Shown here: piece by piece, positions 12,301 to 26,847 of the stretch
How positions within the stretch are numbered: position 1 is the first letter of the stretch
How the letters are laid out: each line of letters opens with the position of its first letter
NCBI GenBank assembly: GCA_016931625.1
Contig: JAFGEK010000079.1
Location: 258 to 64,257, forward strand
DNA from: Deltaproteobacteria bacterium
Lineage (GTDB): Bacteria > Myxococcota > XYA12-FULL-58-9 > JAFGEK01
Direction: 5' to 3'
Length of the DNA: 64,000 nt
The notes under the pieces: model-generated
The model's input: only the letters and a program-made list of their open reading frames with translations
Told to the model about the DNA's origin: nothing
The model's database searches: none
Made by a program: the position numbers and the translations under genes

Positions 12301-13085
12301 GATTGAGAGTCAGTAATAGTAGTTACAATATTCCAACGATATTCTGGTGGTTGTGGATCATAATTGCCATTGTTGTCTTTGGCGCGTACACGAAAAACAT
12401 GCTCACCGTAACTTAAACTTGAGTATGAAAATGATCCAGGATTTATATTAGAACATACACTATATCCAGAATTATCAAGTTCGCATTCGAAATTAGCTAT
12501 TCCATAGTTACTACTAGCAGAGAAATAAAAATTTATATCTTTTTGAGTGGTCTGGGCAGTATCAGGATATGCGCTGGTAATAGTAGTAGATGGATATTCA
12601 AATCCAGAACTACTACCACTAGTATCAATTTGCACTTGCCAAGTATAAGATGCAGGATTATTATCTACATTACCAGAATTATCTCGTGCACGAACTTGAA
12701 AAGTATGAGAACCAGTCGATAGATCATTATATTGTATAGAAGCTTGACCACTGTTAGGTACGCCGCAAGGCGAAAAAGAGGCATCATCAAGACTGCAATC
12801 AAAACCAATCACACTATCATTATCTGTGCCGGTATATTTAAATTCAACTGATGTACCACTTGGGTTAGTTGGGGAAGAGGTTATTTGTGTATCTGGTGCA
12901 AGGGTGTCATTGCTAACCATGCTAGAATCATTAGGTACACAGATGTTATTGTTACAGTGAAACTCTTTAGCGCAATCGTCATCAGAATTGCATTTAAAAG
13001 TTTCTTTGTAAATATCCGGTACTTGTACAGTGCAACCGGTTAATAGCCAAATTAAAATAAAACAAGTGGTAAGATAGTGTCGCAT
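9264..13085 (-). CDS. giant secreted lipoprotein: N-terminal tandem roughly 95 aa beta-sandwich-type repeats followed by a long array of RCC1-like repeats
   Basis: Start set at MRHYLTTCFILIWLLTGC (lipobox LTGC, GAGGGAG Shine-Dalgarno upstream). Five to six repeats of the pattern F(D/E)C.LD...F..C....HTF.VRA.D..GN.D. Then more than 15 CWG.N..GQLG RCC1-type repeats. Confidence 0.85.
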   Translation of the reverse strand: MRHYLTTCFILIWLLTGCTVQVPDIYKETFKCNSDDDCAKEFHCNNNICVPNDSSMVSNDTLAPDTQITSSPTNPSGTSVEFKYTGTDNDSVIGFDCSLDDASFSPCGVPNSGQASIQYNDLSTGSHTFQVRARDNSGNVDNNPASYTWQVQIDTSGSSSGFEYPSTTITSAYPDTAQTTQKDINFYFSASSNYGIANFECELDNSGYSVCSNINPGSFSYSSLSYGEHVFRVRAKDNNGNYDPQPPEYRWNIVTTITDSQSPETYLNSTPASSSTNTYAYFSFSGSDNIQVTGFDCRLDSEPFAPCGDGSSNSIDYYSLQPGTHYFAVRAIDSSNNVDNSPSTFTWYVASADTTPPITYINSSPSSLTNDSYANFTFSCNETNCTYECRLDYGAYFDCSGGSISQYVDEGSHTFEVWAFDSSNNRDDYGATYYWDVDTVQPTLSLTFYPSAPTTPDSRTSFNVDLDCSDYNGCTITYKFDSENVTTATNYPENVSRYGLTETSHTLTVWATDSAGNTTEDTRTWTVSMVWQFVDSGPSAQHNCAIASDQSLWCFGANKNGQVAPDLGDERIGWVTRIHSETADGVDNWLQATAGGGHTCGLRYANGGAYQDLWCWGANSDGQLGLGYTGSIPTEPMQVADYSYNFVKVKAGTRHTCALTSNKTLYCWGNNSYGQLGLGNTSDYESNFTNIVSGGYQWQDFALGDDFTCGIQNDYSLWCWGKNDYGQLGIGNNQYKSQPTLVDNTMQYRNVVVGQKHACALDTGDKLYCWGDNSWLQVGPSSSLYPLYLSDNWSGMIFAGANHTCAIRNNNLECWGGNYNGQLGVGHTYSQGPSAVLNGATTAALGAVHTCAINSYGLYCWGNRNEGTVGNGIAATLAPTDKVLNTSYGYIELTSLSTGGKHACGRDLYGKAWCWGDDRFGQLGNEWPTPATEFIDDIAPRQEAVGLFSGSNAINKVTAGAKHSCFIINGGELYCSGDNSIGQLGTGTYNSRAVPEREYYYSSDWIAVGAGSEHTCGIRSISGSNSVYCWGQNNDGQLGNNQSDNFYNTPQIMVQNGTSFDDWTQLAVGDQHSCAIRHDYTYGYNELYCWGKNANGQIGIDSNSPTKILMPTNTWSGQTQWLTASAGGNHTCGITGSAFPGSLRCWGSNSLGQLGNGTFTDVYSPVSSTSLGNNWIWVAAGLNHTCGIQYASAGKGSLWCWGANHSGQLGAGYQFYQSATPVQVGAKTDWVAVAAGDNFTCGIRANGAVYEAYCFGDNYQGQLGNATAWEVYP

Positions 13086-13230
13086 TGCTCCCTCACAGCT
13101 AGTAACAATAAGGTATAACGGCTCTATTTTGAAAAACATGTAGTGCGATTTTAAAAAGGTTAATTCGAGGTAGTAAAAAATAGTAATAATGTAGTATAAA
13201 CGCAGATACTTATATTAGTTAGGCATAAGC

Positions 13231-14673
13231 ATGATTCGGGCTAAAAAACCTCAATTTGCAGCAAAAAAAAAGAAATATAAAAGGCGATCATCATCTATAG
13301 CATTGGTGGCGGAAAATTTATATTTGAATAACTATAATTCACGGGCGAAGAAAATCGATATTGGTGAGTTTGATCGAAACGCTAAGCTACAAAAATTAGC
13401 TTTAGATTTATGGAGTCGTATTCGTCTTGATTGGAATTATGTGGCAACACGATTATCGACAGCAGTGCGTCAAGAACGTTGGTTAAACAGTAAAGAAAGG
13501 CGAGATTTATTTGAATTATTATTTGGAATGATTCGCCAATATCGTAGGATAGATTATTTATTGAATAATGCGGGTGTGTTAATACCACCTGGTACTACCT
13601 ATGAATTAGCTCGCTTATTAATTTATAGACTAATAAATGATGAAATAGATATCGTGACTGCAAATAATTACTTTAAAAGTATTGATTGGCAAAAAGTTAT
13701 TGATAGCAATGCAAACCTTGCAAAAGAACATAATATGCAAAAACGTATTGCATATTTACACTCCTATCCAGATTGGCTTACTAAGCGTTTTATTAAAGAA
13801 TTTAATGAGGAAGCAGAGCCATTAGCAATAGCACTTAATCAACGGGCAAATTTAACGTTGCGATGTAACATTAGTAAAATATCTCGTAAGTCATTACTAG
13901 AGCGTTTTAGTGAAAAAAAAATATCAGCAGAAGCTGGTCAATTTTCAGACCAAGCAATAATACTTAAATCACACATAGATGTCTTTGGATTAACCGAATA
14001 TGCTGAGGGTTTATTTGAAACACAAGATGAGGGTAGTCAATTAATTGCCGCACTAATAGATGCTAAAGCAAATGATATAGTGGTCGATGTATGCGCGGGT
14101 GTAGGAGGAAAAACTTTTGCTATAGCTGCTACTATGCAAAATAAAGGCAGTATATGGGCACTTGATATTGATGCTAAAAAACTTGCAGCGCTTGATAAAC
14201 GCGCGCGCCACTTAGATTTATCAATAATTAGAACACTATCTACAGCGACGGATAATTGGCCAACAGAAATCGCAGCGCTAATAGGCAAAGTAGATCGGGT
14301 TTTAGTCGATGCACCTTGCACTGGTACTGGTGCTTTGCGACGCAATCCCGAAAATCGCTGGCGTTTAAATGAACAAGATATTGGTGTACTTGCTAAGCTA
14401 CAAGAAAAGTTAGTTATAAGATCATTATCGCTTTTAGCTAAAGGGGGTCGTTTAGTTTATGCGACTTGTTCTTTGTTGCAGGAGGAAAACGAGGCAGTTA
14501 TTGCGCGTGTGCTTAAGCGTGCATCTAATATTGAGTTAGTACCTATTAATAAGGTTGTTAAGCAACAGCTTGCCGCACAAATAAGTGATCAGCAGGGGTT
14601 GTATTTGCAAACATTACCGCATACACATGGTAGTGATGGATTTTTTGCCGCAGTTTTGCAAAGAGTTTGTTAG
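13231..14673 (+). CDS. rsmB: 16S rRNA (cytosine-C5)-methyltransferase, NOL1/NOP2/Sun family, with NusB-like N-terminal domain
   Basis: SAM-binding motif VVDVCAGVGGKT, the DAPCTGTG catalytic Cys motif, and YATCS motif VI. Confidence 0.85.
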   Translation: MIRAKKPQFAAKKKKYKRRSSSIALVAENLYLNNYNSRAKKIDIGEFDRNAKLQKLALDLWSRIRLDWNYVATRLSTAVRQERWLNSKERRDLFELLFGMIRQYRRIDYLLNNAGVLIPPGTTYELARLLIYRLINDEIDIVTANNYFKSIDWQKVIDSNANLAKEHNMQKRIAYLHSYPDWLTKRFIKEFNEEAEPLAIALNQRANLTLRCNISKISRKSLLERFSEKKISAEAGQFSDQAIILKSHIDVFGLTEYAEGLFETQDEGSQLIAALIDAKANDIVVDVCAGVGGKTFAIAATMQNKGSIWALDIDAKKLAALDKRARHLDLSIIRTLSTATDNWPTEIAALIGKVDRVLVDAPCTGTGALRRNPENRWRLNEQDIGVLAKLQEKLVIRSLSLLAKGGRLVYATCSLLQEENEAVIARVLKRASNIELVPINKVVKQQLAAQISDQQGLYLQTLPHTHGSDGFFAAVLQRVC

Positions 14674-14755: not shown

Positions 14756-15001
14756 ATGCAATGGATAAATGCGTCTGAATTTAAAGCAAAGTGTTTAGCA
14801 ATGCTCGATGAAGTGGCAAAGAGTACTGATGGTATAACTATTCTTAAAAGAGGACGTCCTATTGCTAAGTTAATACCTTATGTTTCGAGCGATGAAAAAT
14901 ATCCACAGAATTCATTAAAAGGCAGTGTTGTGATTAAAGATGATGTTATAAAGCCAGTATTGTCTGATTCAGTTTGGGAGGTAGATAAGCATAATTTATG
15001 A
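14756..15001 (+). CDS. type II antitoxin, Phd/YefM-like
   Basis: Small acidic protein ...KAKCLAMLDEVAKSTDGITILKRGRPIAKLIP... Its stop overlaps the start of the downstream PIN toxin gene by 4 bp (ATGA). Confidence 0.75.
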   Translation: MQWINASEFKAKCLAMLDEVAKSTDGITILKRGRPIAKLIPYVSSDEKYPQNSLKGSVVIKDDVIKPVLSDSVWEVDKHNL

Positions 15002-15393
15002 AGATTATTTTAGACACACATATTATTTTATGGTGGTTTGAAGATACTAATAGACTATCAAAAAAGCAGAAAAAAACCATTGAAAATGCTGATCAACAAA
15101 ATCCACTGTTGATTTCAGATATATCGTTATGGGAAATAGCCACTTTATATGAATTAGGCAGAATAAAACTTAAACTGCCATTACGAGATTGGCTTATGCA
15201 AGCTTTTGCGCCACCACTAGTCAGGTTATGTGGTATTACTGCCGCAATTGCTGCAACGGTTGCTTCACTACCAGAGAGTTTTAATCGAGATCCTGCCGAT
15301 AGAATTATAACAGCTACCGCGCTGGTTCATGGTGCAACATTAGTTACTAATGACGAAAGAATAATAAGATCAAAAATTGTATCAATACTTTAA
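14998..15393 (+). CDS. vapC: PIN-domain ribonuclease toxin VapC
   Basis: MKIILDTHIILWW..., SLWEI, DPADRII and TNDERI supply the four acidic PIN residues. Translationally coupled to the antitoxin gene. Confidence 0.85.
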   Translation: MKIILDTHIILWWFEDTNRLSKKQKKTIENADQQNPLLISDISLWEIATLYELGRIKLKLPLRDWLMQAFAPPLVRLCGITAAIAATVASLPESFNRDPADRIITATALVHGATLVTNDERIIRSKIVSIL

Positions 15394-16385: not shown

Positions 16386-17690
16386 TTACTGCCATCTTAG
16401 CGGTTTATTTAGTAGCATCTCACTAAAAGCATCTATGCGTGTACGGACTTGTGAAGGATTAAAACTATGAGAGTCAATGCAACAAGCGTCAAGAGTTAAT
16501 ACTGGTATTTGTTCGCGTAAGAATAATTGCTGTAAAAGCGGATATTGCATAGCATAAACTCCACAATGAGGCATAGCTAGCATTACCACGCCATCAATAC
16601 GATGCTCTTCGGCTTGCTCTAATAAAAGTTTAAAGCGTTGTTGGGGTAAAATCGATTCACGGGAATTAAGTAGGTGTTTGGCTAAATCATCATAGGGGTC
16701 ATATAAATCACAACCTTTAAAGTTAAGTTCTGATATATCTTCCCATACAAAACGAATCAGGCCATCACGCTCGATATATTCAACTATATCATTGGGATAG
16801 TATGGCATTAAAAACATCCACATAAGCCGCCGCTGTGGTTGTTGTTTAACTTGATCATCATTTTGTAAACGTTCTTGGTAACTTTGCAGCATATGTTGGG
16901 CAAAGGCAGTAAATTCCGGCTTACCATAGTAGGGTGAAACTCCAATGGTAAGTGATTGAAAGACACTTGGCGGATCAAGCAATGGGTAGCGACTGCGCAA
17001 ATGCAGTGCAGCTTTAAATGCGGTATAGGCATTATGGGCGTATGCTAAACTATTGTGTAAGTTTGCAGAACTAAGGGTTTCACCAGTTTGCTTTTCAATT
17101 AGGTGAGTCAACTCATATAGTTGTGATGCCACATATTTAATGGCATTAATATTATCACCGGCATTATAGGGCACGTTAATTAAATAATGTGGCGCTTGAT
17201 AATGATGAGCTGCAAAACTATATACATTGGATATACCTTCACAACCTTTAGCCGTGTTAATAATAAAATCTGGCGAAGCACAAATATTTAAGTATTGACT
17301 GGCAGGTATCGTGCGGACAAAATTGCATACTGATCGTGGTATGCCGATTTTGTCAGCAGCAATAAGCAGACATTGCTCGGCGCCCTGAGCTGCAAATAAT
17401 GAACCGATAGCTTCAACCGGAAAAAAGACAAGGCTGCTAAAGGCATTAAGTAATTCAGGGGGGACGGTAATATTGCGCCAGACTACAAAAGCATCTGGGG
17501 TATAAGCGCGACGCAATTCAGAGGCAATTAATGATAAAGGTGATGAAGTAGCTGCGGTCGGGTTAAGCGAGAGATCAGCGGCAATTTTGTTGGCCAAAGT
17601 TTTTTTAGGTATTTTATGTCGACGTAATTCGGTAAATAGCCTCGCTATTTGTTGACTACGTTCATGATGTTGTAGCTTAATTAAACTCAT
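16386..17690 (-). CDS. 2-hydroxyacyl-CoA dehydratase-family subunit (HgdB/BcrB/BadE-like)
   Basis: Size and Cys-containing blocks (e.g. MPHCGVYA, LDACCIDSH) are typical of the dehydratase family that depends on an ATPase activase (a CoA-substrate-specific enzyme activase). Confidence 0.6.
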   Translation of the reverse strand: MSLIKLQHHERSQQIARLFTELRRHKIPKKTLANKIAADLSLNPTAATSSPLSLIASELRRAYTPDAFVVWRNITVPPELLNAFSSLVFFPVEAIGSLFAAQGAEQCLLIAADKIGIPRSVCNFVRTIPASQYLNICASPDFIINTAKGCEGISNVYSFAAHHYQAPHYLINVPYNAGDNINAIKYVASQLYELTHLIEKQTGETLSSANLHNSLAYAHNAYTAFKAALHLRSRYPLLDPPSVFQSLTIGVSPYYGKPEFTAFAQHMLQSYQERLQNDDQVKQQPQRRLMWMFLMPYYPNDIVEYIERDGLIRFVWEDISELNFKGCDLYDPYDDLAKHLLNSRESILPQQRFKLLLEQAEEHRIDGVVMLAMPHCGVYAMQYPLLQQLFLREQIPVLTLDACCIDSHSFNPSQVRTRIDAFSEMLLNKPLRWQ

Positions 17691-17730
17691 TATATTATCA
17701 CAACCTTTAGATAATTTTTTAATAATAGAC

Positions 17731-19710
17731 CTAGCTATTTTTTATTGAATTCAAACGCTCAAGCCATGCATCACAGCGTGTTTGCAGTTGTCCGTCAATA
17801 GTTAAATTACCTGAGAGTTCAAGTTCTAGAGTCGGTAGCCCGAGTTTTTCAAATTCTTGCGAAATAAAATGCATATTTGTATAAGCCACCGTACAGAATT
17901 TTGCATTGACTACCACTATCCCATCTGCTTGAGCATGTAATACTTGACCTATAATATTGCGTAAAAATTTATGCTTGTCGATTAATCGCGGGCAGTTAAT
18001 ATGAGTTAGGGTATAGTCTGCTAAAGCAATAAAAGGGTCTTTACATTTAACATTAATATAACCTTGCCATGGTCGCATTGCCGAGCAATGATCAGTTACG
18101 ACAAATTCAGCGCTCGTAGCAAATGTTTGCTGCAGCGTTTCGTTATTAATACAACACCCTAAAATTGCGAGTCGCAATTTTGTTGAGACAATATTTTTAT
18201 TACTATGCTTAGCTTTTAGCTGTTGAAGATAACCTTGCAATTGTAAAGAGATCGATGAGGGTGGCATGGTTAATGCCATAGTATATAGTTCAGCCATAGC
18301 AGCTTCATTTATGGTTAAAGCGCCAGATGTACGAAATAACATAAGTTGTTGCCATAAGAGTCTAGTTTCATTGCTAGCATTAATAGCTTGCCATAATTTA
18401 TTAAGAGAAAACGATATATTAAAATATGCACAGAGTTGATCAACAATTGCACGATAGCTTTCAGCTAAATAGTGGCAGTCGTTAACCTGGTTTTTTAACG
18501 GCATTGCACTTAACACCGTGAAAATTTGGGGTTGTTGCAATGCAATAGCATCATAAACACGGCGTTTGGCATCACATGAGTCAACTGCGATAACACCGAG
18601 TAATTGGCGGTTAGCATGTAGATTTTCAATTTGACTTGCTTGTGCAGATGCAATTGAGCAAATTTGTGGATGTAGATTAAATAGTGAAAGTTGTTGGTGT
18701 TGTGTTTGAATAGCGATAATGCGATTTGGTAGGTTAAGAGCGTATAAAATTTCACGAGGAAAACAACTGCAAAGTACGGCAATAAAACTATCCTTAGCAA
18801 TAGCCTTATTAGTATTTGGAGAAGCAATAACTTGATTTGAACATGTTGGCTGAGACTTTATTTGATTATTACATTTAAGTGAATAGTTATTATTAAGTAA
18901 ATTATCACGTGCAATAAGTGCAGCACCAAGAGCCCCAACTATTTGGGGATTATCACATACATTTAGTGTATATCCTAACAAGTGTGTAAGTTGTTTTACT
19001 AGGGCCTGATTAAGTGCAACACCGCCACTCATAACATATAAAGGAGAATGATCCAGCCGTTGTATTAATGCTAAAGTACGATTAGCAATAGCATAAAATA
19101 CTGCCGCCATTATATCACCAGGGTTAATATTTTTTGCAATAAGACTTACAACTTCAGACTCGGCAAAAACCGCGCAGGTAGAATTTATATTTACTTTATT
19201 AATACTATTAGCTGCGGCGAAGTTTAATTGCGTGAGATCATCATTAAGCGTACGACAAATCGTTTCAATAAAGCGACCAGTACCAGCGGCACACCGATCA
19301 TTCATAACAAAATTTTGAACATTACCATTATTAGCAAGACAAATAACTTTGCTATCTTGTCCACCAATATCAATTACTGTTTTAGCTTCGGGAAAAAAAT
19401 GCAAGACCCCACGAGCATGACAAGAAATTTCAGAAATTGTATTTTTCACCCAACTAACACTATGACGTCCAAATCCAGTAGCTACGCTAGCAATAATTTG
19501 CTGAGGTTTAATATGAAATAACCCTAATATTGCTTGATAGGCCATATCAGCAGTATTTTCAGCACTAGGACTACTTGAAAAAATATGACTAAAGGAAATA
19601 TGACCAGTATCAGTATCAACAGCAACAATTTCTGTTGAGATCGATCCAATATCAATGCCCAAACAATAGGTTGCAGTAGGTTTTGGCAGCATTGTAAAAC
19701 TATTAATCAT
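17731..19710 (-). CDS. fusion of a BadF/BadG/BcrA/BcrD-type ATPase (dehydratase activase) with a second 2-hydroxyacyl-CoA dehydratase-like subunit
   Basis: The N-terminal roughly 270 aa have an ASKHA fold (CLGIDIGSISTEIVAV ... VMSGGVALNQ). The C-terminal roughly 390 aa form a Cys-rich dehydratase-like domain (AILGCCINNE, VTDHCSAMRP). Confidence 0.6.
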   Translation of the reverse strand: MINSFTMLPKPTATYCLGIDIGSISTEIVAVDTDTGHISFSHIFSSSPSAENTADMAYQAILGLFHIKPQQIIASVATGFGRHSVSWVKNTISEISCHARGVLHFFPEAKTVIDIGGQDSKVICLANNGNVQNFVMNDRCAAGTGRFIETICRTLNDDLTQLNFAAANSINKVNINSTCAVFAESEVVSLIAKNINPGDIMAAVFYAIANRTLALIQRLDHSPLYVMSGGVALNQALVKQLTHLLGYTLNVCDNPQIVGALGAALIARDNLLNNNYSLKCNNQIKSQPTCSNQVIASPNTNKAIAKDSFIAVLCSCFPREILYALNLPNRIIAIQTQHQQLSLFNLHPQICSIASAQASQIENLHANRQLLGVIAVDSCDAKRRVYDAIALQQPQIFTVLSAMPLKNQVNDCHYLAESYRAIVDQLCAYFNISFSLNKLWQAINASNETRLLWQQLMLFRTSGALTINEAAMAELYTMALTMPPSSISLQLQGYLQQLKAKHSNKNIVSTKLRLAILGCCINNETLQQTFATSAEFVVTDHCSAMRPWQGYINVKCKDPFIALADYTLTHINCPRLIDKHKFLRNIIGQVLHAQADGIVVVNAKFCTVAYTNMHFISQEFEKLGLPTLELELSGNLTIDGQLQTRCDAWLERLNSIKNS

Positions 19711-19756: not shown

Positions 19757-21028
19757 TTAAAAATTTGAAATAACAAGAGCTGCCGCGTTACCTGCATGTG
19801 AAGTAGAGGTAATAAGTGCATGCTTAGTATTTACTGACACCTTCTTAGTTTGCGCGTAATTTAAAGGAGTTTCTGGATTAACCAGGTTGGCAATTGCTGG
19901 TACCGAACTATTTCGTATTGACCAAGCAGCTACTAATGTTTGCAGTAAACCACCAGTTTCTAAGGTTTCACCTATACTACCCTTAATCGCAGTAATTATC
20001 GGACATATATTATCATTATTAGTATATAAACATGATATTACATCAGCTTCACGACGGTCAATTTCGATATCTCCAGATGCAGATGCAGAAATGACACCGA
20101 TATCATTAACATCAATACCAGCCTGCTTAATTGCATGTGTGCATGAATTAAGTAAGGTTTCGGTTGCTTCATCATTATCAGCCGCCATTGCTGATGATAA
20201 TCCGCTTAAATTTGTGAGAGGAGTGATATCACGTTGTTGAGCATATGATAATGGTTCAAGTACTACAGCAGCGGCAGCTTCTCCTAAAGCAATATTTTTG
20301 CGATTAGTATCAAATGGTCTAGGTAAATAATTAGTATCAAATTTGCTGGCTCTTGACATGCTAAATAGTAACTCATCACAAAAAGAAAAACTTGTAACAA
20401 CTACCAAGGCACGTGCGCGTTTTTGTTGTAATAATAGTGTCGCAAGATTAAGTGCCTCAAGTGATGAAGTGTTTCCGCTTGATATAGTGAAACATAAGGC
20501 CTTGAGACCAAGAGATAAAGCGATTTGACTACTGGCAGCGCTTGGAATGCTAAATGGAACCAGGGCAGGATTAGATTTATGCAATCCTTCAACTACCACA
20601 CTGCGGTCATATTTTATTAAAGTTGGAAGATGAGCAAAACTAAACGCTCCTATTAACCCAATTTGATTACAATCAAAGTAAGTATCTGAAACGTCATCGA
20701 AGGTTTGATGATTTTCGTTATTTTGCTTATTGATATCGCAATATATTTTAGCATCATCAAGAGCAAGTTTTGCGGCGCAAAGCCCTAATTGAGTAGTGCG
20801 GTTAAGTAATCTCAATCCCTTTACAGGTGAATATTTTAAGGGGTCAAAATTTGGAATGCTAGCAATATTGATTTTAGGTATATCTTTAGCAGATTGCCAG
20901 GTTTGCAAAATGCCATTATATCCAGTGCATAATGAAGTAGCTAAAGTATCTAACGAATCACCAAGAGGCGTGATTACCCCAACCCCGGATATGGCGATAG
21001 GATTGCCAATTTCACCAAGTTGATTCAT
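19757..21028 (-). CDS. ketosynthase-like protein lacking the Cys-His-His triad (KS-beta / chain-length-factor-like partner)
   Basis: Thiolase/KS fold. The active-site position reads ALCFTISSGNTSS with Asn in place of Cys. The two His positions read ISASASG and IKGSIGE. The start of the upstream KS gene overlaps its end by 4 bp. Confidence 0.7.
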   Translation of the reverse strand: MNQLGEIGNPIAISGVGVITPLGDSLDTLATSLCTGYNGILQTWQSAKDIPKINIASIPNFDPLKYSPVKGLRLLNRTTQLGLCAAKLALDDAKIYCDINKQNNENHQTFDDVSDTYFDCNQIGLIGAFSFAHLPTLIKYDRSVVVEGLHKSNPALVPFSIPSAASSQIALSLGLKALCFTISSGNTSSLEALNLATLLLQQKRARALVVVTSFSFCDELLFSMSRASKFDTNYLPRPFDTNRKNIALGEAAAAVVLEPLSYAQQRDITPLTNLSGLSSAMAADNDEATETLLNSCTHAIKQAGIDVNDIGVISASASGDIEIDRREADVISCLYTNNDNICPIITAIKGSIGETLETGGLLQTLVAAWSIRNSSVPAIANLVNPETPLNYAQTKKVSVNTKHALITSTSHAGNAAALVISNF

Positions 21029-22260
21029 GTTTCACAACGCTTTATGATCAGGCAAACATTAAAGCCGCCAAAGCCAGCAGATAGATTTAAACAGTTATTT
21101 AATGGCAAATTGCGACCATGAATAGGCACGTAATCAAGGTCACACTTAGGATCATGTGTCGTAAGATTTGCCGTAGGTGGTACGGCTTGGTGTTGCAGCG
21201 CTAAAGTGCAAATAATAGCGGCGATAGCGCTGGCGGCGCCATTGCAATGCCCAAGCATAGATTTCAAAGAACTAATGCTTAGCTTATAGGCATGTTCACC
21301 AAATATATTCTTTATAGCTGAGGTTTCCGCATTATCATTATGAATAGTACCGGTACCATGAGCGCTTATATATTCAATTGCAGAAAAAGATGTATTACTT
21401 TGTTGTAATGCTTTACGCATAGCTCTTGTAAAACCATCACCTTGTGGTTCTGGGGCAGTAACATGGTAGGCGTCATTACTCATGCCATATCCTGCGATTT
21501 CAGCAATTATATTAGCGCCGCGTGTTCGCGCATGTTCATAATCTTCAAGAACTAAAATACCTGCCCCTTCACCAAAACATACACCATCACGATTTAGATC
21601 AAAGGGTCGACAAACAGATTTGGCTAAAATTCCCAGACGCGAGAAACCGCTATAAACTGTGCGGGTAAGTGTATCAGCGCCGCCAGCCACCATAAGTTCT
21701 GCTCTGCCGCTAGCAATCATATCGTAGGCAAGAGCAATTGCGGCATTACCCGAACTGCATGCAGCTGTGCATAATATTGATGGACCGGTGAGGGAAAAAT
21801 AACGAGAAATATTCGTTGTTATATGATGGTTATCAGCACGTTGATAAAACGTTGCATCAACTGCGTCATAGCCAATTTGAGTAAAATGATCATTAAGCTC
21901 ACCAACTGATTCTTCTTCGCCCATGGTAGTACCGATAATTACTCCAATAGGTGCGCGTCTTTTGGTGTCATTAATTAGTTGGGCTTCAGTAAGTGCAAGT
22001 TTTGTCGCTATTAAGGCTAGTTTAGTGCAGCGACCATAGGCAGCAATATGATCGATTACTTGTTTATCGTTATCAGTTGATAAATCGCATAGTGGTGTGG
22101 ATACTTCACCGCCCCAAAGATCAGCCATATTTGTACAAGAAAAACGCTGCAATGGAGCGATAAAGCAAGTACCGTCGAATAGTGATTGCCATACACTGTA
22201 TAGCTCACTTCCTGCAGCAGTTAATAAACCTCTGCCGGTTATTGCGACTTTACGTAACAT
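21025..22260 (-). CDS. beta-ketoacyl-ACP synthase (FabF/KS-alpha-type, catalytically intact)
   Basis: Cys motif ILCTAACSSG; His motifs ISAHGTGT and MLGHCNGAASA. Confidence 0.85.
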   Translation of the reverse strand: MLRKVAITGRGLLTAAGSELYSVWQSLFDGTCFIAPLQRFSCTNMADLWGGEVSTPLCDLSTDNDKQVIDHIAAYGRCTKLALIATKLALTEAQLINDTKRRAPIGVIIGTTMGEEESVGELNDHFTQIGYDAVDATFYQRADNHHITTNISRYFSLTGPSILCTAACSSGNAAIALAYDMIASGRAELMVAGGADTLTRTVYSGFSRLGILAKSVCRPFDLNRDGVCFGEGAGILVLEDYEHARTRGANIIAEIAGYGMSNDAYHVTAPEPQGDGFTRAMRKALQQSNTSFSAIEYISAHGTGTIHNDNAETSAIKNIFGEHAYKLSISSLKSMLGHCNGAASAIAAIICTLALQHQAVPPTANLTTHDPKCDLDYVPIHGRNLPLNNCLNLSAGFGGFNVCLIIKRCET

Positions 22261-22281: not shown

Positions 22282-23559
22282 CTAGCTTTTTATGTAGCGC
22301 TTGCGCATGGCTTCACCATGATTTGTTAAAAACCAATTCCAGCAATCAAGCCACCCTTGACGTAATTGTTCAACTGAAAAATGCTTTGGTCGAAAAACAA
22401 TATTAGCACCGTTATATTTTTGCCATTGGTGATGCAAAAGACGCCCTGATTTTGTAAAACGAGCAAACAAGCGACTGCCCGGAAAAGGTGTTGCAATAAA
22501 AAATACCGCGTCATTAATAGATAATCTTGTTAGATAGGCAAGAACTGTATCAAAGATCGATGGTTGATCGTAATCAAAACCTAACATTGTCGAAGCGCAA
22601 ATATGAAAACCTAAATCTTGAATATATTTAATCAAATCATGATTATTCCAATATTTTTGAGCTAATTCACTTGGTATGTTAGTAGCAAAACTATTGAGGG
22701 TTAAATATAGACTATCAACATTACATGAATGTAGATGCTTTAAAAATGAAGGGTCGACTTGTTTGATCGAGCTTAACTCATCAGGAGCTAAAGCTAGCAT
22801 AAAACGTTTTTGTGTAGTGCTCAGTGCCGCGAATAATTCGCGTAACATAGGCAAAGCGTTGTCACCAGTGGCGCCTTGAGTCAAATTATCTGGAATATAT
22901 AAAGTGTTACTGGCCACGTTAGTAAGGTCTTGTAGTATTTTATCTGCTGTCAGCTGACGAATTTTACCATCAACCAAGGGTTCAACATGGGCAATGGGAC
23001 ACCATTGACATTGCAGGCGACAAGAGCGCGGTGTCAACATAATTTCCATGTCATGCGGGTAGGTCTGTCGATTCACTAACGAACGTTGGGGTAGGGGAAT
23101 TTCATTTATTGTTGGCGGACGCTCGCTAATATAAAATTGCTTGGTGGTGCCATGTAGCAAATCATTTATAAAAAGTGGCCAGGTAAGCTCAGCCTCACCA
23201 ATAAAAAGTATATCCGCATGCGCTCGTGCTTCTTGAGGCATTATAGTTACATGTTTGCCTCCCAGAATCACGAGTTTGTTTCTTTGGCGAAAATTATCAG
23301 CAATGTCATATGCTCGTGAAGCTTGTGGAGTAAAAAGGCTTATTGCCACAAGATTTGCATTAGTTTCATATGGAATGCTCATAAATTGGTCATCGATAAA
23401 TTCTAGTTCTATTTCTTTGGGTGTCAATGCTGCTAAAGTTGGTAAAGCTAACCCAGGCCCAACAGGATCAAGCCACGGGTAACCATCAGTGAGATGGCTA
23501 AGTTCAGAATGACCTTCTATGAGTTTTGCATAGCTTGGATATATTAATAATATTTTCAT
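22282..23559 (-). CDS. B12-binding-domain radical SAM enzyme
   Basis: N-terminal MKILLIYPSY... Rossmann-like B12 domain. The radical SAM cluster motif is CRLQCQWC (CxxxCxxC). Confidence 0.7.
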   Translation of the reverse strand: MKILLIYPSYAKLIEGHSELSHLTDGYPWLDPVGPGLALPTLAALTPKEIELEFIDDQFMSIPYETNANLVAISLFTPQASRAYDIADNFRQRNKLVILGGKHVTIMPQEARAHADILFIGEAELTWPLFINDLLHGTTKQFYISERPPTINEIPLPQRSLVNRQTYPHDMEIMLTPRSCRLQCQWCPIAHVEPLVDGKIRQLTADKILQDLTNVASNTLYIPDNLTQGATGDNALPMLRELFAALSTTQKRFMLALAPDELSSIKQVDPSFLKHLHSCNVDSLYLTLNSFATNIPSELAQKYWNNHDLIKYIQDLGFHICASTMLGFDYDQPSIFDTVLAYLTRLSINDAVFFIATPFPGSRLFARFTKSGRLLHHQWQKYNGANIVFRPKHFSVEQLRQGWLDCWNWFLTNHGEAMRKRYIKS

Positions 23560-23579: not shown

Positions 23580-23804
23580 TTAGGCGTTGGCATTTTTGGC
23601 AACTCGCAATAGGTCATTAAAGTTATGCACTTCGGCGTATTGTTTTTCAGGAATGGTTATTCCTAAAGCTTGTTCAATTTCAAAAATTAATTCAAGCGCC
23701 CCTAGAGAATCGATACCTAAGACCTCGCGAAAATCTGCATCATTAGCGAAATCCTCATTAGTTTCAGCTATCTGTGCAACTATCTGTCTTAGTTGTTGTT
23801 CCAA
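23580..23804 (-). CDS. acyl carrier protein
   Basis: 74 aa, acidic. Phosphopantetheine-attachment motif LGIDSLGALEL. Confidence 0.8.
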   Translation of the reverse strand: MEQQLRQIVAQIAETNEDFANDADFREVLGIDSLGALELIFEIEQALGITIPEKQYAEVHNFNDLLRVAKNANA

Positions 23805-23858: not shown

Positions 23859-24137
23859 TTATGCTATAGAGATGAATTTATTTTGTTGTTTTTGCATTTG
23901 TTGTACTAATGCGGTGATAGTATTAACGGTACGAAAATTATCAGTATTTATATCCACAATATTGACATTGACTGCGAATCTCTCATCAATAAAAGCAATT
24001 AGAGCAAATGTTGAAAACGAATCAAGGATACCGTTTTGTTGAAGATCAGTATCAATATCGAAGCCGCGTTCGTCATTGTTAAGAAAATTATAAATAATAT
24101 ACTGGCTAATCTCTTTGGCAATTAATGAAGCACTCAT
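23859..24137 (-). CDS. second acyl carrier protein-like protein
   Basis: 92 aa with GILDSFSTFALIAFIDE (DSx attachment-site context). Its start overlaps the stop of the upstream ligase gene. Confidence 0.6.
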   Translation of the reverse strand: MSASLIAKEISQYIIYNFLNNDERGFDIDTDLQQNGILDSFSTFALIAFIDERFAVNVNIVDINTDNFRTVNTITALVQQMQKQQNKFISIA

Positions 24138-25702
24138 GAAGATCGTCCCAAGCGATTTTTATCGCGAGCAGGAATTAGTAAATCAGGATTCATCCCGGCA
24201 ACTGCTGATCCAATACTAAGGCGATCAGCTTTGCCATTATCGGTACGTGGTAATTTTCTAACTAATCTAACATCAGATGGGATCATATAGCGAGGTAGTA
24301 AACCAGCACAATGCCGTTTAAGATCTAAAACCGATAGTGTTTGTTCATTTGGTACCGCAACCGCAATTAATTTATTATGTGCAACTAAAGCTACAGCTTC
24401 ATGGACTTTGGGATGTTGATTTAACACAGCTTCGACTTCACCAAGCTCAATGCGATTACCGCGAATTTTAACCATATGATCAAGTCGACCATGATACCAT
24501 AACTCACCATTAGCGCCACGTGATACTAAATCACCAGTTGGGTAAGGACGTTGAGGTTTTATGGTGTTACCGCCATTAAAATAACCAAGCATTACCGTCG
24601 GTCCATCAACTAATAATTCACCGATTTCTCCATCAGCAACAGGATGCCCACTCGTAGAAACTATACTAATTGTGTTGCTACAACTCGGCCAACCAATAGG
24701 TATTGCTGCGGAGTTTTCTGAAGGAGGTTTTTTTATTTCATAGTATAAACACACATTAGTTTCAGTAGGACCAAAGAAATTAAAAAAGCGAGCTTGGCGA
24801 ACTGCGGTCATAAGCCGACGTAAGTGTTTTAGGGGAAACACTTCACCAGCGAAACAAATAACTCGTAATGAAGCAGCACCATTGCGCGTTAATTCACCTG
24901 AATCTAACATAAGCATAAGCGCTGAAGGCACTGAATACCAGATGGTAATATTATAGTGTCGAATAAATTCTGACATGTGATGGCCAGAGTTGCTAATAGC
25001 CTCATCAACAATAAATATCGTAGCACCGCGACTAAATGATGCCCAAATATCAAAAACAGATAAATCAAAATGAAATGGCGCATGATTAGCTACATGATCA
25101 TGATTATTAAGGTCTACTAACGTAGCAGCCCACTCAGTAAATGCTAAGACATTTCTGTGTGATATCATTACTCCCTTAGGAGTGCCAGTTGAGCCAGAAG
25201 TATAAAGAATAAAAGCTAAATCATCAGAACAATTTGTTGATACAGAGGGAATATTATTGCTATGTTGTTTAATTTGGTTAAGGTTTGTTACTTTGCTAGT
25301 TGAATGATCGTGATTATCGATAAGTAAAAAACGATTTATTTTGTTTTCTTGTTTAGCTTCTTGCCATACTTTTAGCAGAGATGAAGTTGTGATTAAGTGA
25401 TGCAAATTACAGTCATTAGCGATAAGAATAGCGCGAGATATTGGTGAGGCAGGATCAATAGGTACAAAAGCTGCACCTGCACGCAATACTCCTAACATTG
25501 CTGCCACAACTATTGGTGAGCGAGGTGAATGAATTCCTACGCGATCACCAATACCAACTCCTTGGTTAATTAGACTGTGGGCAAACTGATTTGCCAGTGT
25601 ATCTAAGTCACCATAGGTAAGTTTTGATTTCTGACCGACAAGCGCTAAGTGCTGACTTTCGTGCTCGGCCCATATAGTTACAAGCTGATCTATGCGCATC
25701 AT
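24134..25702 (-). CDS. AMP-dependent synthetase/ligase (fatty-acyl-AMP / acyl-ACP ligase-type adenylating enzyme)
   Basis: Adenylation core motif ILYTSGSTGTPKGV and GEL..GP..M.GY block. Position next to the ACP genes suggests it loads an ACP. Confidence 0.8.
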   Translation of the reverse strand: MMRIDQLVTIWAEHESQHLALVGQKSKLTYGDLDTLANQFAHSLINQGVGIGDRVGIHSPRSPIVVAAMLGVLRAGAAFVPIDPASPISRAILIANDCNLHHLITTSSLLKVWQEAKQENKINRFLLIDNHDHSTSKVTNLNQIKQHSNNIPSVSTNCSDDLAFILYTSGSTGTPKGVMISHRNVLAFTEWAATLVDLNNHDHVANHAPFHFDLSVFDIWASFSRGATIFIVDEAISNSGHHMSEFIRHYNITIWYSVPSALMLMLDSGELTRNGAASLRVICFAGEVFPLKHLRRLMTAVRQARFFNFFGPTETNVCLYYEIKKPPSENSAAIPIGWPSCSNTISIVSTSGHPVADGEIGELLVDGPTVMLGYFNGGNTIKPQRPYPTGDLVSRGANGELWYHGRLDHMVKIRGNRIELGEVEAVLNQHPKVHEAVALVAHNKLIAVAVPNEQTLSVLDLKRHCAGLLPRYMIPSDVRLVRKLPRTDNGKADRLSIGSAVAGMNPDLLIPARDKNRLGRSS

Positions 25703-26847
25703 TAAAGTCCTAATGATTTAGCGATGAGTATGCGCTGCATTTCAGAGCTACCGGAAAATACTCGCGCAGGAAGGGCATCGCGTAAGAGAGAATCGACACC
25801 AGTAGCAGTAATCATGGCAAAGCCACCAAAAATTTGTACCGCATCGCTGCCACTTTGTACTGCGGCTTCAGAAATCCAAAGTTTTGCTAAAGAAATAGCT
25901 TCTTCACAATGTTTGCCATCACGATGCAACTCGCCAGCGCGATAAAGCAGCGCACGACTAGTTTCAAGACGAAGTTTCATATCAACAATACGATTTTGTA
26001 TCGACTGATTTTCACCTATAACACGACCAAATTGTTTGCGCGTACGTGCATAGTCAATACATTGTTCAAGCGTACGTTCCATATAACCTACGTAGAAGGC
26101 GAATAGGCAACCACGTTCCCAAATCATTGACTCATGAAACAGAGCAGCGCCACAACCTTCAGCACCCAAACGGGTTTTGGCGCTTACACGACAATCGTTT
26201 AAATATACTGTACCCCATGGTGAAGTACGTAAGCCTGTTTTATTGAGCTCAGCTTGCACCTGCAAGCCTGCTGTTTCACGTGGCAATAAAAAGGCGCTAA
26301 TGCCCAGAAAACCACGAGCAGGATCGGTAGTAGCATAGATTAAAAAATAGTCAGCTATAGGTGCATTGGTGACAAAACACTTGCTACCATTGATAATATA
26401 TTGGTCACCATCGCGTACCGCGAGAGTTTTCAAGGCGAATACGTCAGAACCAGCTTCTGGTTCAGTAATAGCGTTAGCGCAAATATGGGTACCGTTAATG
26501 AACGATGGCAAATAGCGAGAAGTCATTTCATTTTGGGCACGCCAAATGGGTACTGACGCTGCAAACATATGTGCACACAGAGAAAAAATTAAGCCACTAT
26601 CTTCGCAGTGTTTGCCTAACGCCTCAATGATTACCATGGTATCTAGGGCATTAAGATTGCTGCCCCCAAATTGCTCAGGAAACGGTAGACCTGTAAGTCC
26701 AAAGCTAGAGGCTTGCGTCCAAAGCTCTCTATTAAAAGCGGCAGCAGCTTCACGTTCACGAGCACCTGGTGACAAACGTGTTTGTGCAAACTGGCTGACC
26801 ATTTGGACCCGCTCTTGTTGAGCTTGGTCCAAGTTGTAATAAGGCAT
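25702..26847 (-). CDS. acyl-CoA dehydrogenase-family flavoprotein
   Basis: ACAD N-, middle- and C-domain arrangement. Sequence ...QIFGGFAMITATGVDSLLRDA... Its start abuts the ligase gene. Confidence 0.8.
   Translation of the reverse strand: MPYYNLDQAQQERVQMVSQFAQTRLSPGAREREAAAAFNRELWTQASSFGLTGLPFPEQFGGSNLNALDTMVIIEALGKHCEDSGLIFSLCAHMFAASVPIWRAQNEMTSRYLPSFINGTHICANAITEPEAGSDVFALKTLAVRDGDQYIINGSKCFVTNAPIADYFLIYATTDPARGFLGISAFLLPRETAGLQVQAELNKTGLRTSPWGTVYLNDCRVSAKTRLGAEGCGAALFHESMIWERGCLFAFYVGYMERTLEQCIDYARTRKQFGRVIGENQSIQNRIVDMKLRLETSRALLYRAGELHRDGKHCEEAISLAKLWISEAAVQSGSDAVQIFGGFAMITATGVDSLLRDALPARVFSGSSEMQRILIAKSLGL

What the first reader, a model, noticed from the sequence alone, without database searches (positions are those of the whole stretch)
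16386..19710. Atypical 2-hydroxyacyl-CoA dehydratase-like pair with the ATPase activase fused to one subunit, placed beside ACPs
Benzoyl-CoA reductase / 2-hydroxyacyl-CoA dehydratase-family enzymes normally act on CoA thioesters and use a separate activase. Here the activase (ASKHA fold, CLGIDIGS...) is fused N-terminal to one dehydratase-like subunit. The pair sits in an operon whose carriers are ACPs plus an adenylating ligase. That suggests a ketyl-radical dehydration or reduction on an ACP- or CoA-bound intermediate, in a non-fermentative biosynthetic context.
Basis: inference. Interest (0 to 1): 0.55.

Follow-up and report, generated by a model that had tools for sequence, protein, structure and literature searches.

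The report
BCR-like radical enzyme in pyrrole operon
Two adjacent genes encode an oxygen-sensitive, ATP-powered iron-sulfur enzyme of the benzoyl-CoA reductase / 2-hydroxyacyl-CoA dehydratase family, sitting unusually inside a small proline-derived (pyrrole) polyketide operon, so it probably does very low-potential radical chemistry on a carrier-bound biosynthetic intermediate.

Summary
The 659-aa protein is an activase (BcrAD_BadFG, residues 15-275), a disordered linker, then an HGD-D domain. The 434-aa protein is a second HGD-D subunit. Both close a tightly packed nine-gene minus-strand operon (26847 to 16386).

- Such fusions are common: over 100 full-length homologues, mostly anammox, and a published review describes them.
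- The cofactor signature matches benzoyl-CoA reductase BzdNO, not HadBC. The fused domain keeps all six [8Fe-9S] double-cubane cysteines with BzdN-like spacing.
- The 434-aa partner keeps only the three catalytic [4Fe-4S] cysteines plus Trp71 and Glu93. Its model is closest to HadB, BzdO and MbdO.

The operon is a prolyl/pyrrole starter cassette (PigA-like dehydrogenase, adenylating ligase, carrier), an ACP, a B12 radical-SAM enzyme, and a KS/CLF pair.

Fifteen sibling loci share the cassette. None shows the radical-SAM gene or the pair where flanks allow, and those with sequence after CLF carry a ketoreductase. The fusion's closest relative (40%) directly follows a sibling-type ketoreductase gene.

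Best reading: an ATP-driven radical tailoring enzyme, more likely a reductase than a dehydratase. Substrate and product are unknown, and I found no published precedent.

The parts
18886..19668 (-). Activase ('archerase') ASKHA ATPase domain of the 659-aa fusion (residues 15-275). Cys140 and Cys179 are the predicted ligands of a [4Fe-4S] cluster bridging two copies.
   Evidence: Pfam BcrAD_BadFG E 1.6e-50 and TIGR00241 233.6 bits. phmmer to HadI 4eht E 2.9e-56 and MbdQ 9gai_D 1.5e-51. Foldseek TM 0.90-0.93. C140 and C179 are invariant in 108 of 108 aligned fusions. DIGS, DIGGQD and GGVA motifs are present.
18796..18885 (-). Low-complexity linker (residues 276-305) between the activase and HGD-D domains.
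   Evidence: pLDDT is below 50 for residues 276-301 in the AF2 model. This stretch is gapped or unconserved in the family alignment.
17734..18795 (-). BzdN/HadC-type (accessory, electron-relay) HGD-D domain of the fusion (residues 306-659). The six Cys C314, C351, C379, C542, C573 and C606 are predicted to hold a double-cubane [8Fe-9S] cluster.
   Evidence: Pfam HGD-D E 4e-44. The HMMER alignment to BzdN 8s02_B puts Cys at five of the six published ligands (C36/100/263/293/327). Window C351 aligns with BzdN C76 in its CxxC, three residues from the published ligand C73, and aligns exactly with Cys in MbdN, DCCP and HadC. Spacing is X36/X27/X162/X30/X32 against X36/X26/X162/X29/X33 in BzdN. Five of the six columns are invariant in about 107 homologues; the sixth sits 4-8 residues away in them. 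Foldseek ranks DCCP/HadC/BzdN/MbdN ahead of the alpha/O subunits.
16386..17690 (-). 434-aa catalytic-type (HadB/BzdO-like) HGD-D subunit. C122, C150 and C376 are predicted to hold a [4Fe-4S] cluster with one open Fe site. Trp71 and Glu93 are conserved.
   Evidence: Pfam HGD-D E 2.7e-47. Alignments to BzdO (C95/C128-129/C380) and HadB. Only these three Cys are invariant in 128 representatives (127 of 128 at C376); E93 is kept in 94% and W71 in 64% overall, 90% of the top 20. AF2 pLDDT 89; Foldseek best hits are HadB (TM 0.79-0.86), BzdO and MbdO.
19757..21028 (-). Chain-length-factor-like inactive ketosynthase (Ser183 in place of the active-site Cys; no catalytic His).
   Evidence: Pfam ketoacyl-synt plus Ketoacyl-synt_C. 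Motif check. Alignment A1/A2.
21025..22260 (-). FabF-like ketosynthase with an intact Cys168/His301/His338 triad.
   Evidence: It is 50-55% identical (full-length matches) to the KS of sibling clusters.
22282..23559 (-). B12-binding radical-SAM enzyme (CX3CX2C at C180/C184/C187). It is absent from the sibling clusters.
   Evidence: Pfam B12-binding 37.7 bits (cut-off 32.1); Radical_SAM 24.5 bits, E 3.5e-05, below its 29.5 gathering score, so the radical-SAM assignment also rests on the CX3CX2C motif and on homologues with precomputed PF04055. Relatives of 35-43% identity sit beside KS/ACP/DH genes in lipid-type clusters L026 and L027.
23580..23804 (-). Acyl carrier protein (74 aa, DSL Ser33).
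   Evidence: Pfam PP-binding E 2.3e-13. Motif.
23859..24137 (-). DltC-like aminoacyl carrier protein (92 aa, DSF Ser40).
   Evidence: NCBIfam DltC and OlsHI-ACP partial hits. Conserved in all siblings directly after the ligase.
24134..25702 (-). Stand-alone amino-acid adenylation enzyme, the predicted prolyl-AMP ligase.
   Evidence: TIGR01733 scores 356.4 bits against a cut-off of 317.4. It is 44% identical to the ligase of a Brasilonema ACAD-ligase-ACP-FAD-oxidoreductase cassette.
25702..26847 (-). PigA-type aminoacyl-carrier-protein dehydrogenase (prolyl-S-PCP to pyrrolyl-2-carboxyl-S-PCP).
   Evidence: NCBIfam NF053553 prodigiosin PigA scores 559.8 bits against a cut-off of 500. It is 65-67% identical in sibling loci.

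Best explanation
The two genes encode a heteromeric, three-cluster, ATP-driven radical enzyme of the BCR/HAD family that serves as a tailoring enzyme of a prolyl-derived (pyrrole) KS/CLF polyketide-like operon.

Proposed path:
1. Two fusion chains dimerise through their activase domains. They share a [4Fe-4S] cluster held by Cys140 and Cys179.
2. ATP hydrolysis drives a low-potential electron into a double-cubane [8Fe-9S] cluster in the fused BzdN-type domain (six Cys).
3. That cluster passes or stores electrons for the [4Fe-4S] cluster of the 434-aa HadB/BzdO-type subunit (three Cys and an open Fe site, with Trp71 and Glu93 nearby).
4. There a thioester-activated intermediate is converted by ketyl-type or hydrogen-atom-transfer chemistry.

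The intermediate is probably pyrrole-2-carbonyl-S-PCP or its malonyl-extended product on the ACP.

The cofactor set is that of benzoyl-CoA reductase and the ATPase is present at 1:1. The reaction is therefore more likely a net (two-electron) reduction than a redox-neutral dehydration.

Shown here: family, domain order, conserved ligands, subunit types, operon membership. Inferred: electron path, oligomer, reductase versus dehydratase, carrier-bound substrate.
For: - Family and domains.
- Six-Cys BzdN-like pattern and spacing, plus R330 and R546 at the positions of BzdN Arg53 and Arg267.
- Published ligand lists, and the rule DCCP = 6+6 Cys, BzdNO = 6+3, HadBC = 3+3: PMC11971306.
- The partner has exactly three invariant Cys plus E93 and W71. 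Its confident model (pLDDT 89) is closest to HadB, BzdO and MbdO.
- The fused domain is closest to DCCP, HadC, BzdN and MbdN.
- Operon packing: gaps of 46 and 40 nt, and uniform GC3.
- The only thioester carriers encoded in the operon are the PCP and the ACP.
- The closest relative of the fusion (L011, 40% identity) starts 8 nt after an SDR whose tail matches sibling-cluster ketoreductase tails at 15-17 of 25 residues. The association with this cassette family therefore recurs.
Against: - No biochemical data exist for this subfamily.
- BzdO His131 has no counterpart.
- NCBIfam scores for BzdN, BzdO, HadB, HadC and DCCP are all far below their cut-offs.
- More distant relatives are stand-alone units with no carrier or KS genes: the anammox pairs L003/L004, L005-L007, and the unfused N-O-activase trios L029-L032. 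The module can therefore work outside any PKS context.
- The fifteen sibling cassettes show no such pair, and the five with more than 2 kb read beyond CLF (L012, L015, L020, L021, L025) do without it.
- Pyrrole is electron-rich, so a Birch-type reduction would be very demanding.
- The partner's fold is marginally closer to the dehydratase subunit HadB than to BzdO.
Confidence: 0.55

Rival explanations
1. It is a true 2-hydroxyacyl-thioester dehydratase (HadBC/HgdAB-like). One recycled electron forms a ketyl radical on the thioester carbonyl, and a hydroxyl group of a carrier- or CoA-bound intermediate is eliminated.
For: Membership of the same superfamily. The partner's best structural match is HadB. 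The closest relative of the fusion follows a ketoreductase gene that could supply a hydroxyl group.
Against: - HadC-type subunits carry a three-Cys [4Fe-5S] remnant, whereas this domain keeps all six double-cubane Cys.
- Dehydratase activators are separate and act sub-stoichiometrically; here the ATPase is fused 1:1.
- The window has no ketoreductase or 2-hydroxyacid-forming enzyme, and a ketoreductase would give a beta-hydroxyl, not an alpha-hydroxyl.
- HadB and HadC equivalog scores are 57.9 and 41.8 bits against cut-offs of 750 and 700.
Confidence: 0.2
2. It is a DCCP-like reductase whose real job is not on the polyketide. It either reduces a small molecule or acts as an ATP-driven low-potential electron source that keeps the neighbouring B12 radical-SAM enzyme (its [4Fe-4S] cluster or cobalamin) reduced.
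For: Among HGD-D-type NCBIfam models, NF040772 'double_cubane' scores best for both proteins, at 103 and 74.8 bits. The radical-SAM gene and the pair are the two additions that distinguish this operon from all fifteen siblings.
Against: - The partner keeps catalytic-subunit hallmarks: three Cys, Glu93, Trp71 and a HadB/BzdO-like fold.
- Relatives of the pair show no adjacent B12 radical-SAM gene.
- Relatives of the radical-SAM gene have no such pair nearby.
- NF040772 scores are far below the 350-bit cut-off.
Confidence: 0.1
3. The pair is a passenger. It is a self-contained module that merely sits at the end of the operon and acts on an unrelated cellular CoA ester.
For: Relatives with readable neighbours at 25-33% identity are stand-alone two- or three-gene units.
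Against: Same strand, gaps of 46 and 40 nt, no terminator-like site in the CLF-fusion gap in the scan (which showed no enrichment over shuffles), and host-like GC3. The nearest relative again abuts a sibling-type ketoreductase gene.
Confidence: 0.1

Closest known systems
Class I benzoyl-CoA reductase, Bzd/Mbd type (BzdNOPQ, PDB 8S02; MbdONPQ, PDB 9GAI)
   Same: It has the same three-module logic and the same predicted cluster set. That set is an ASKHA ATPase with a bridging [4Fe-4S] cluster, an N-type subunit with six Cys for an [8Fe-9S] cluster at near-identical spacing, and an O-type subunit with three Cys plus Trp and Glu.
   Different: - There is one ATPase type, fused to the N-type subunit, instead of two separate ATPase subunits.
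- His131 of BzdO is absent.
- Similarity is remote: phmmer E 3e-7 to 3e-6 against BzdN/BzdO and 17-19% identity over the Foldseek alignments; equivalog scores are 28-38 bits against cut-offs near 450.
- No benzoyl-CoA pathway genes are present. The context is a carrier-protein operon.
(R)-2-hydroxyisocaproyl-CoA dehydratase HadBC with activator HadI (PDB 3O3M, 4EHT)
   Same: HadI is the best sequence match of the activase domain (E 2.9e-56, 40% identity). The partner's model superposes best on HadB (TM 0.79-0.86). The three Cys, the Trp and the nearby Glu align.
   Different: The accessory domain keeps six Cys, whereas HadC keeps three. The activator is fused. There is no fermentative context with a CoA transferase or a 2-hydroxyacid dehydrogenase.
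Double-cubane cluster protein DCCP with DCCP-R (PDB 6ENO, 7YYL), and the fused 'class III' DCCPs described in PMC7317905
   Same: A six-Cys double-cubane signature, dependence on an archerase ATPase, and known fusion of reductase and catalytic parts.
   Different: DCCPs are homodimers with a double cubane in every subunit. Here a second, three-Cys subunit is present, as in BCR. NF040772 scores 103 bits against a cut-off of 350.
Uncharacterised fused activase-HGD plus HGD-D pair found across many anammox genera (for example L003 in Brocadia)
   Same: Same two-gene order and architecture: 30-33% identity for the fusion and about 25% for the partner. The same invariant Cys are present.
   Different: The anammox pair stands alone and is not in ladderane Cluster I. 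It carries extra conserved Cys (window positions 201, 343/347 and 632). Its function is unknown.
Pyrrole-2-carboxyl starter cassettes (PigI/PigG/PigA, PltF/PltL/PltE) with a KS pair as in PigJ/RedX
   Same: A PigA-type dehydrogenase above its NCBIfam cut-off, a stand-alone adenylation enzyme, a small carrier, then an active KS and an inactive KS with a separate ACP.
   Different: There is no PigH-type aminotransferase, halogenase, thioesterase or ketoreductase. A B12 radical-SAM enzyme and the BCR/HAD pair are present instead.
Ladderane 'Cluster I'-like lipid clusters (ACP, FabF2/FabFmut, B12 radical-SAM)
   Same: An ACP, B12 radical-SAM and KS/CLF arrangement. The radical-SAM enzyme's relatives (35-43% identity) lie in KS/ACP/DH/amine-oxidase clusters.
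   Different: TIGR04072 scores only 31 bits against a cut-off of 360. There is no FabZ or phytoene-dehydrogenase homologue. The starter cassette is amino-acid derived.

Membership tests
BCR/HAD radical enzyme superfamily (Pfam HGD-D plus BcrAD_BadFG) | HGD-D fold in both large subunits | tested here: met
   Pfam E 4e-44 and 2.7e-47. Foldseek matches to HadB/C, BzdN/O, MbdN/O and DCCP.
BCR/HAD radical enzyme superfamily (Pfam HGD-D plus BcrAD_BadFG) | ASKHA ATPase with two Cys per chain for a dimer-bridging [4Fe-4S] cluster | tested here: met
   TIGR00241 scores 233.6 against a cut-off of 125.4. C140 and C179 align with the CAAGTG and STC(T/A)VFAESE Cys of HadI, HgdC and MbdQ and are invariant in 108 of 108 sequences.
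BCR/HAD radical enzyme superfamily (Pfam HGD-D plus BcrAD_BadFG) | Substrate is a CoA thioester | not testable with these tools
   The operon encodes a PCP and an ACP but no CoA ligase or CoA transferase. This is suggestive only.
Class I benzoyl-CoA reductase (Bzd type) | N-type subunit with six Cys ligands of an [8Fe-9S] double cubane | tested here: met
   C314/351/379/542/573/606 correspond to BzdN C36/73/100/263/293/327. Five align directly; C351 aligns to BzdN C76, three residues from ligand C73, and to the equivalent Cys of MbdN, DCCP and HadC. The spacing matches.
Class I benzoyl-CoA reductase (Bzd type) | O-type subunit with three Cys plus Trp46, Glu65 and His131 around Fe-OH2 | tested here: inconclusive
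   C122, C150 and C376 align with BzdO C95, C128/129 and C380. W71 and E93 align only with HadB (W34; Glu55 one residue off); the BzdO alignment starts at residue 75, so equivalence to Trp46 and Glu65 rests on spacing. There is no His at the His131 position.
Class I benzoyl-CoA reductase (Bzd type) | Two distinct ATPase subunits and equivalog-level similarity | tested here: not met
   There is a single, fused ATPase. TIGR03190 scores 28.7 against 453.8, TIGR03191 38.1 against 448.6, and TIGR03192 141.9 against 380.2.
(R)-2-hydroxyacyl-CoA dehydratase (HadBC/HgdAB/FldBC) | Beta subunit with only three Cys ([4Fe-5S]) and a separate catalytic activator | tested here: not met
   Six Cys are kept, and HadC lacks a Cys at the C542 position in the alignment. 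The activator is fused. The rule comes from PMC11971306.
(R)-2-hydroxyacyl-CoA dehydratase (HadBC/HgdAB/FldBC) | Equivalog-level similarity to HadB and HadC | tested here: not met
   NF052455 scores 57.9 against 750. NF052456 scores 42.8 (partner) and 41.8 (fusion) against 700.
Double-cubane cluster protein (DCCP) | Seven-Cys motif in a homodimeric protein, with NF040772 above its cut-off | tested here: not met
   NF040772 scores 103 and 74.8 bits against 350. The partner lacks the distal-subcluster Cys.
Pyrrole-2-carboxyl-S-carrier starter cassette | PigA/RedW-type aminoacyl-PCP dehydrogenase with an adjacent adenylation enzyme and carrier | tested here: met
   NF053553 scores 559.8 against 500. 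The gene order is conserved in the sibling loci that are long enough to show it and in a Brasilonema cassette.
Pyrrole-2-carboxyl-S-carrier starter cassette | Proline specificity of the adenylation enzyme | tested here: inconclusive
   The ten-residue code DLFYCAFVCK was read by hand against GrsA numbering from the sequence. No reference set was available for comparison.
Type II PKS-like KS/CLF heterodimer | An active KS (Cys-His-His) beside a KS homologue that lacks the catalytic Cys | tested here: met
   KS has C168, H301 and H338. CLF has S183 and no catalytic His. The two genes overlap by 4 nt.
Ladderane Cluster I | TIGR04072 B12 radical-SAM enzyme, amxFabZ and a phytoene-dehydrogenase homologue | tested here: not met
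   TIGR04072 scores 31.3 against 360. No FabZ or phytoene-dehydrogenase homologue is in the operon. The anammox pair lies outside such clusters.

The most novel reading that the evidence does not exclude
This would be the first BCR/HAD-family enzyme recruited into thiotemplated natural-product assembly. It would be an ATP-driven double-cubane reductase acting on a carrier-protein-tethered heteroaryl thioester. Examples are a Birch-type partial reduction of pyrrole-2-carbonyl-S-PCP to a pyrroline, or ketyl chemistry on the pyrrolyl-beta-ketoacyl-ACP. By homology it would also give the first functional handle on the uncharacterised fused pair found across many anammox bacteria.
Probability: 0.3. 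Interest if true: 0.8.

Novelty: new variant of a known kind. Interest (0 to 1): 0.58.

Why it matters
BCR/HAD enzymes reach some of the lowest redox potentials in biology. So far they are known only from anaerobic catabolism of aromatic compounds and amino acids, and only with CoA esters.

The published BzdNO structure paper names the restriction to CoA esters as the current limit on enzymatic Birch reduction. A member wired into a carrier-protein operon would extend this chemistry to biosynthesis and to carrier-bound substrates. It would also offer a compact two-polypeptide version of the four-subunit reductase.

The operon defines a small, uncharacterised family of pyrrole-starter KS/CLF clusters, with fifteen sibling loci found here. 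It also points to a widespread fused module, abundant in anammox bacteria, whose function is unknown.

Tried and rejected
1. **Ladderane link.** The radical-SAM gene weakly hits TIGR04072, and the best fusion homologues are from anammox bacteria. However, the score is 31 against 360. The anammox pair is a stand-alone unit away from Cluster I. The ladderane papers I read do not mention it.
2. **'The pair replaces the sibling ketoreductase'.** This was weakened when L011 showed the closest fusion directly after a sibling-type ketoreductase tail.
3. **MetY-like gene (27013-28281) as part of the cluster.** It is absent from all siblings and separated by 165 nt, so I treat it as housekeeping.
4. 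**Recent horizontal acquisition of the pair.** GC and GC3 are uniform across the operon and its flanks.
5. **Promoter and terminator scan.** It shows no significant enrichment over shuffled sequence (promoters at the mean, terminators about 2 SD above) and is uninformative for the operon boundaries.
6. **Genome-contig scan with the fusion.** It returned only activase-level relatives, L001 and L002.
7. **PDB sequence search with the radical-SAM protein.** It found nothing.
8. **Literature searches.** Searches of the held library for a BCR/HAD enzyme in a PKS/NRPS cluster, or acting on pyrrole carboxylates, found none.
9. **Rest of the window.** It holds no PPTase, ketoreductase, dehydratase, thioesterase or ferredoxin gene.

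Full report
**Observation.** The stated interval holds two minus-strand ORFs, 17731-19710 (659 aa) and 16386-17690 (434 aa).
- Pfam finds BcrAD_BadFG at residues 17-267 (E 1.6e-50) and HGD-D at 314-653 (E 4e-44) in the first protein.
- It finds HGD-D at 74-426 (E 2.7e-47) in the second.
- NCBIfam TIGR00241 (acyl-CoA dehydratase activase) passes its cut-off, at 233.6 against 125.4.
- An AF2 model built on 57 sequences shows a well-folded N-domain, a disordered linker at 276-301 and a second domain.
- Foldseek puts the N-domain on HadI, MbdQ and HgdC (TM 0.90-0.93). It puts the C-domain on DCCP, HadC, BzdN and MbdN.

**The operon.** The pair closes a nine-gene operon that runs from 26847 to 16386:
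1. a PigA-type aminoacyl-carrier dehydrogenase (NF053553, 559.8 bits against a cut-off of 500);
2. a stand-alone amino-acid adenylation enzyme (TIGR01733, 356 against 317);
3. a 92-aa DltC-like carrier;
4. a 74-aa ACP;
5. a B12-binding radical-SAM enzyme with CX3CX2C;
6. a FabF-like KS with Cys168, His301 and His338;
7. a CLF-like KS homologue with Ser183 and no catalytic His;
8. the fusion;
9. the partner.

Gene junctions range from 4-nt overlaps to 54-nt gaps, and GC3 is uniform. The flanks are housekeeping or toxin-antitoxin genes. No ketoreductase, dehydratase, thioesterase, PPTase, CoA ligase or ferredoxin gene lies in the window.

The dehydrogenase-ligase-carrier triad is the canonical route from proline to pyrrole-2-carboxyl-S-carrier. 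This rests on established knowledge of PigI/G/A and PltF/L/E. A Brasilonema plasmid carries the same triad followed by an FAD-dependent oxidoreductase and an NRPS, and its ligase is 44% identical. A two-electron product, dehydroprolyl as made by AnaB, cannot be excluded. That point comes from my own knowledge and was not tested.

**Which subunit is which.** phmmer against PDB sequences aligns the fused C-domain with MbdN, BzdN, DCCP and HadC. It aligns the 434-aa protein with DCCP, BzdO, HadC and HadB.

The BzdNO structure paper lists the [8Fe-9S] ligands of BzdN as Cys36/73/100/263/293/327. It lists the [4Fe-4S]-OH2 ligands of BzdO as Cys95/128/380 (PMC11971306).
- In the fusion, Cys314, 351, 379, 542, 573 and 606 correspond to the six BzdN ligands.
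- Five align directly. C351 aligns with C76 of the BzdN CxxC, three residues from the published ligand C73. It aligns exactly with the equivalent Cys of MbdN, DCCP and HadC.
- The spacing is X36/X27/X162/X30/X32, against X36/X26/X162/X29/X33 in BzdN.
- Arg330 and Arg546 sit at the positions of BzdN Arg53 and Arg267, which contact the distal subcluster.
- Five of the six Cys columns are invariant in about 107 full-length homologues. The sixth is displaced by 4-8 residues in those homologues.

The 434-aa protein has Cys122, 150 and 376 at the BzdO and HadB ligand positions. Trp71 and Glu93 align with HadB Trp34 and, one residue off, Glu55. The BzdO alignment does not reach that region. Equivalence to BzdO Trp46 and Glu65 therefore rests on spacing alone. 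There is no His at the BzdO His131 position.

An exhaustive HMMER search of 1.84 billion representatives found no relative of the partner above 30% identity. Only 14 representatives scored E <= 1e-30. In 128 aligned representatives, only these three Cys are conserved throughout (127 of 128 at C376). Glu93 is kept in 94%.

The partner's AF2 model (pLDDT 89, pTM 0.87) is closest to HadB (TM 0.79-0.86), then BzdO and MbdO. These rank ahead of DCCP and the beta/N-type subunits.

The pair is therefore an O/alpha-type catalytic subunit plus an N/beta-type relay subunit that carries the ATPase.

**Reductase or dehydratase.** The same paper sets out a cofactor rule for the family:
- DCCP has a double cubane in each subunit.
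- BzdNO has a double cubane plus a three-Cys cubane.
- HadBC has two three-Cys cubanes.

It argues that the double cubane stores the two electrons needed for reduction. HADs, by contrast, recycle one electron and need their activator only catalytically.

The window pair has the BzdNO pattern and a 1:1 fused ATPase. I therefore favour a net reduction. This is an inference. The absent His131 and the slightly better fold match to HadB count against it.

**How unusual the fusion is.** It is not unusual.
- A review of the FldB/C family states that most long members are fusions with archerases, and it describes fused 'class III' DCCPs (PMC7317905).
- One search returned over 100 full-length fused homologues at 30-34% identity. 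Among those with a source name, nearly all come from anammox Planctomycetota.
- In Brocadia the fusion (641 aa) and an HGD-D partner (447 aa) form a stand-alone pair.
- Other relatives, L005-L007, are likewise outside any PKS context.
- The partner's three nearest relatives sit in unfused N-type, O-type, activase trios.

**How unusual the context is.** A CLF-based scan of metagenome contigs plus tblastn found 14 loci. With L010 these make 15 sibling loci.
- Seven siblings carry the whole PigA-ligase-PCP-ACP-KS-CLF cassette; the shorter contigs carry contiguous parts of it.
- PigA is 65-67% identical, full-length KS 50-55% and CLF 35-39%.
- None has a radical-SAM gene between the ACP and the KS where that junction is present.
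- None contains the pair, although only five siblings were read more than 2 kb beyond CLF.
- Where downstream sequence was examined, CLF is followed by an SDR-type ketoreductase (Pfam-confirmed in L010, L020 and L025). A PPTase, a hexapeptide transferase or an NRPS C-A(-T-TE) gene comes next.

The only protein closer than 35% to the fusion is P0002 on L011, at 40% identity. Its gene starts 8 nt after an ORF whose last 25 residues match the sibling ketoreductase tails at 15-17 positions. This subfamily therefore recurs in the same cassette family, there alongside a ketoreductase. That argues against chance adjacency. It also argues against a simple 'replaces the ketoreductase' story. L011 is short, and its gene is truncated before the last three Cys.

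The radical-SAM enzyme's relatives (35-43% identity) lie next to KS, ACP, FabA-like dehydratase and amine-oxidase genes in lipid-type clusters. Those clusters contain no HGD genes. The operon therefore looks like a mosaic of three modules.

**Known or new.** Searches of the held literature found no BCR/HAD-family enzyme described in a PKS or NRPS cluster. They found none acting on pyrrole carboxylates, and none linked to anammox lipid synthesis. This is absence of evidence within that library only.

I classify the finding as a new variant of a known kind. The family and architecture are established, the cofactor pattern is BCR-like, and the biosynthetic carrier-protein setting is new. Substrate, product and reaction type remain inferred.

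Noticed in passing
window 27013-28281 (-): An O-acetylhomoserine sulfhydrylase-family PLP enzyme (TIGR01326, 517 bits against a cut-off of 495) lies 165 nt upstream of the operon on the same strand. It is absent from all sibling loci, so it is probably housekeeping MetY. Relatives of this family do gamma-substitution with beta-keto nucleophiles in some biosynthetic clusters.
   Followed up: partly
L003 10001-13277 and L004 9911-13187 (Brocadia); many further hits: Many anammox genera carry a stand-alone fused activase-HGD (about 640 aa) plus HGD-D (about 447 aa) pair. It is uncharacterised and is not mentioned in the ladderane literature I read. These proteins have extra conserved Cys at window positions 201, 343/347 and 632.
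   Followed up: partly
L010, L012-L025 (metagenome contigs): This is a family of 15 uncharacterised clusters. Seven carry the full PigA-ligase-PCP-ACP-KS-CLF cassette and the rest carry parts of it. Where downstream sequence was examined, an SDR ketoreductase follows, then a PPTase, a hexapeptide transferase or an NRPS C-A(-T-TE) gene. Some also have an ADH_N_2/zinc-ADH-type reductase nearby.
   Followed up: partly
window 16479-16481 (Cys404 of the 434-aa protein): A fourth Cys, in an 'LDxxC(I/V)D' motif, is conserved in about half of the partner family and in 80% of the closest members. It has no counterpart in DCCP or HadC in the printed alignments. BzdO and HadB were not aligned in this region. 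Its role is unknown.
   Followed up: no
L026 5694-7865, L027 14447-16618, L029 4116-6914: Large HisKA_7TM sensor proteins recur just downstream of two kinds of locus. One kind is the B12 radical-SAM/KS lipid-type clusters. The other is an unfused HGD-HGD-activase trio. This may be coincidence or a shared regulatory theme.
   Followed up: no
window 14756-15393 (+): A Phd/YefM antitoxin and PIN toxin pair lies between the RsmB gene (13231-14673) and the end of the operon. L025 also has RsmB near its cluster, but at only 27% identity.
   Followed up: partly
window 9264-13139 (-) and 29729-31402 (+): A 1291-aa protein with RCC1 repeats and a bacterial Ig-like domain, and a 557-aa protein with multiple Kazal protease-inhibitor domains. 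Both are eukaryote-like repeat proteins and are unusual in bacteria.
   Followed up: no
window 4865-6004 (+), 43572-44567 (-), 6305-7552 (+), 7678-8418 (-): Two Fic/DOC-domain proteins, a nucleotidyltransferase-HEPN fusion and a DUF2326 protein. This suggests toxin or defence-type islands around the operon.
   Followed up: no
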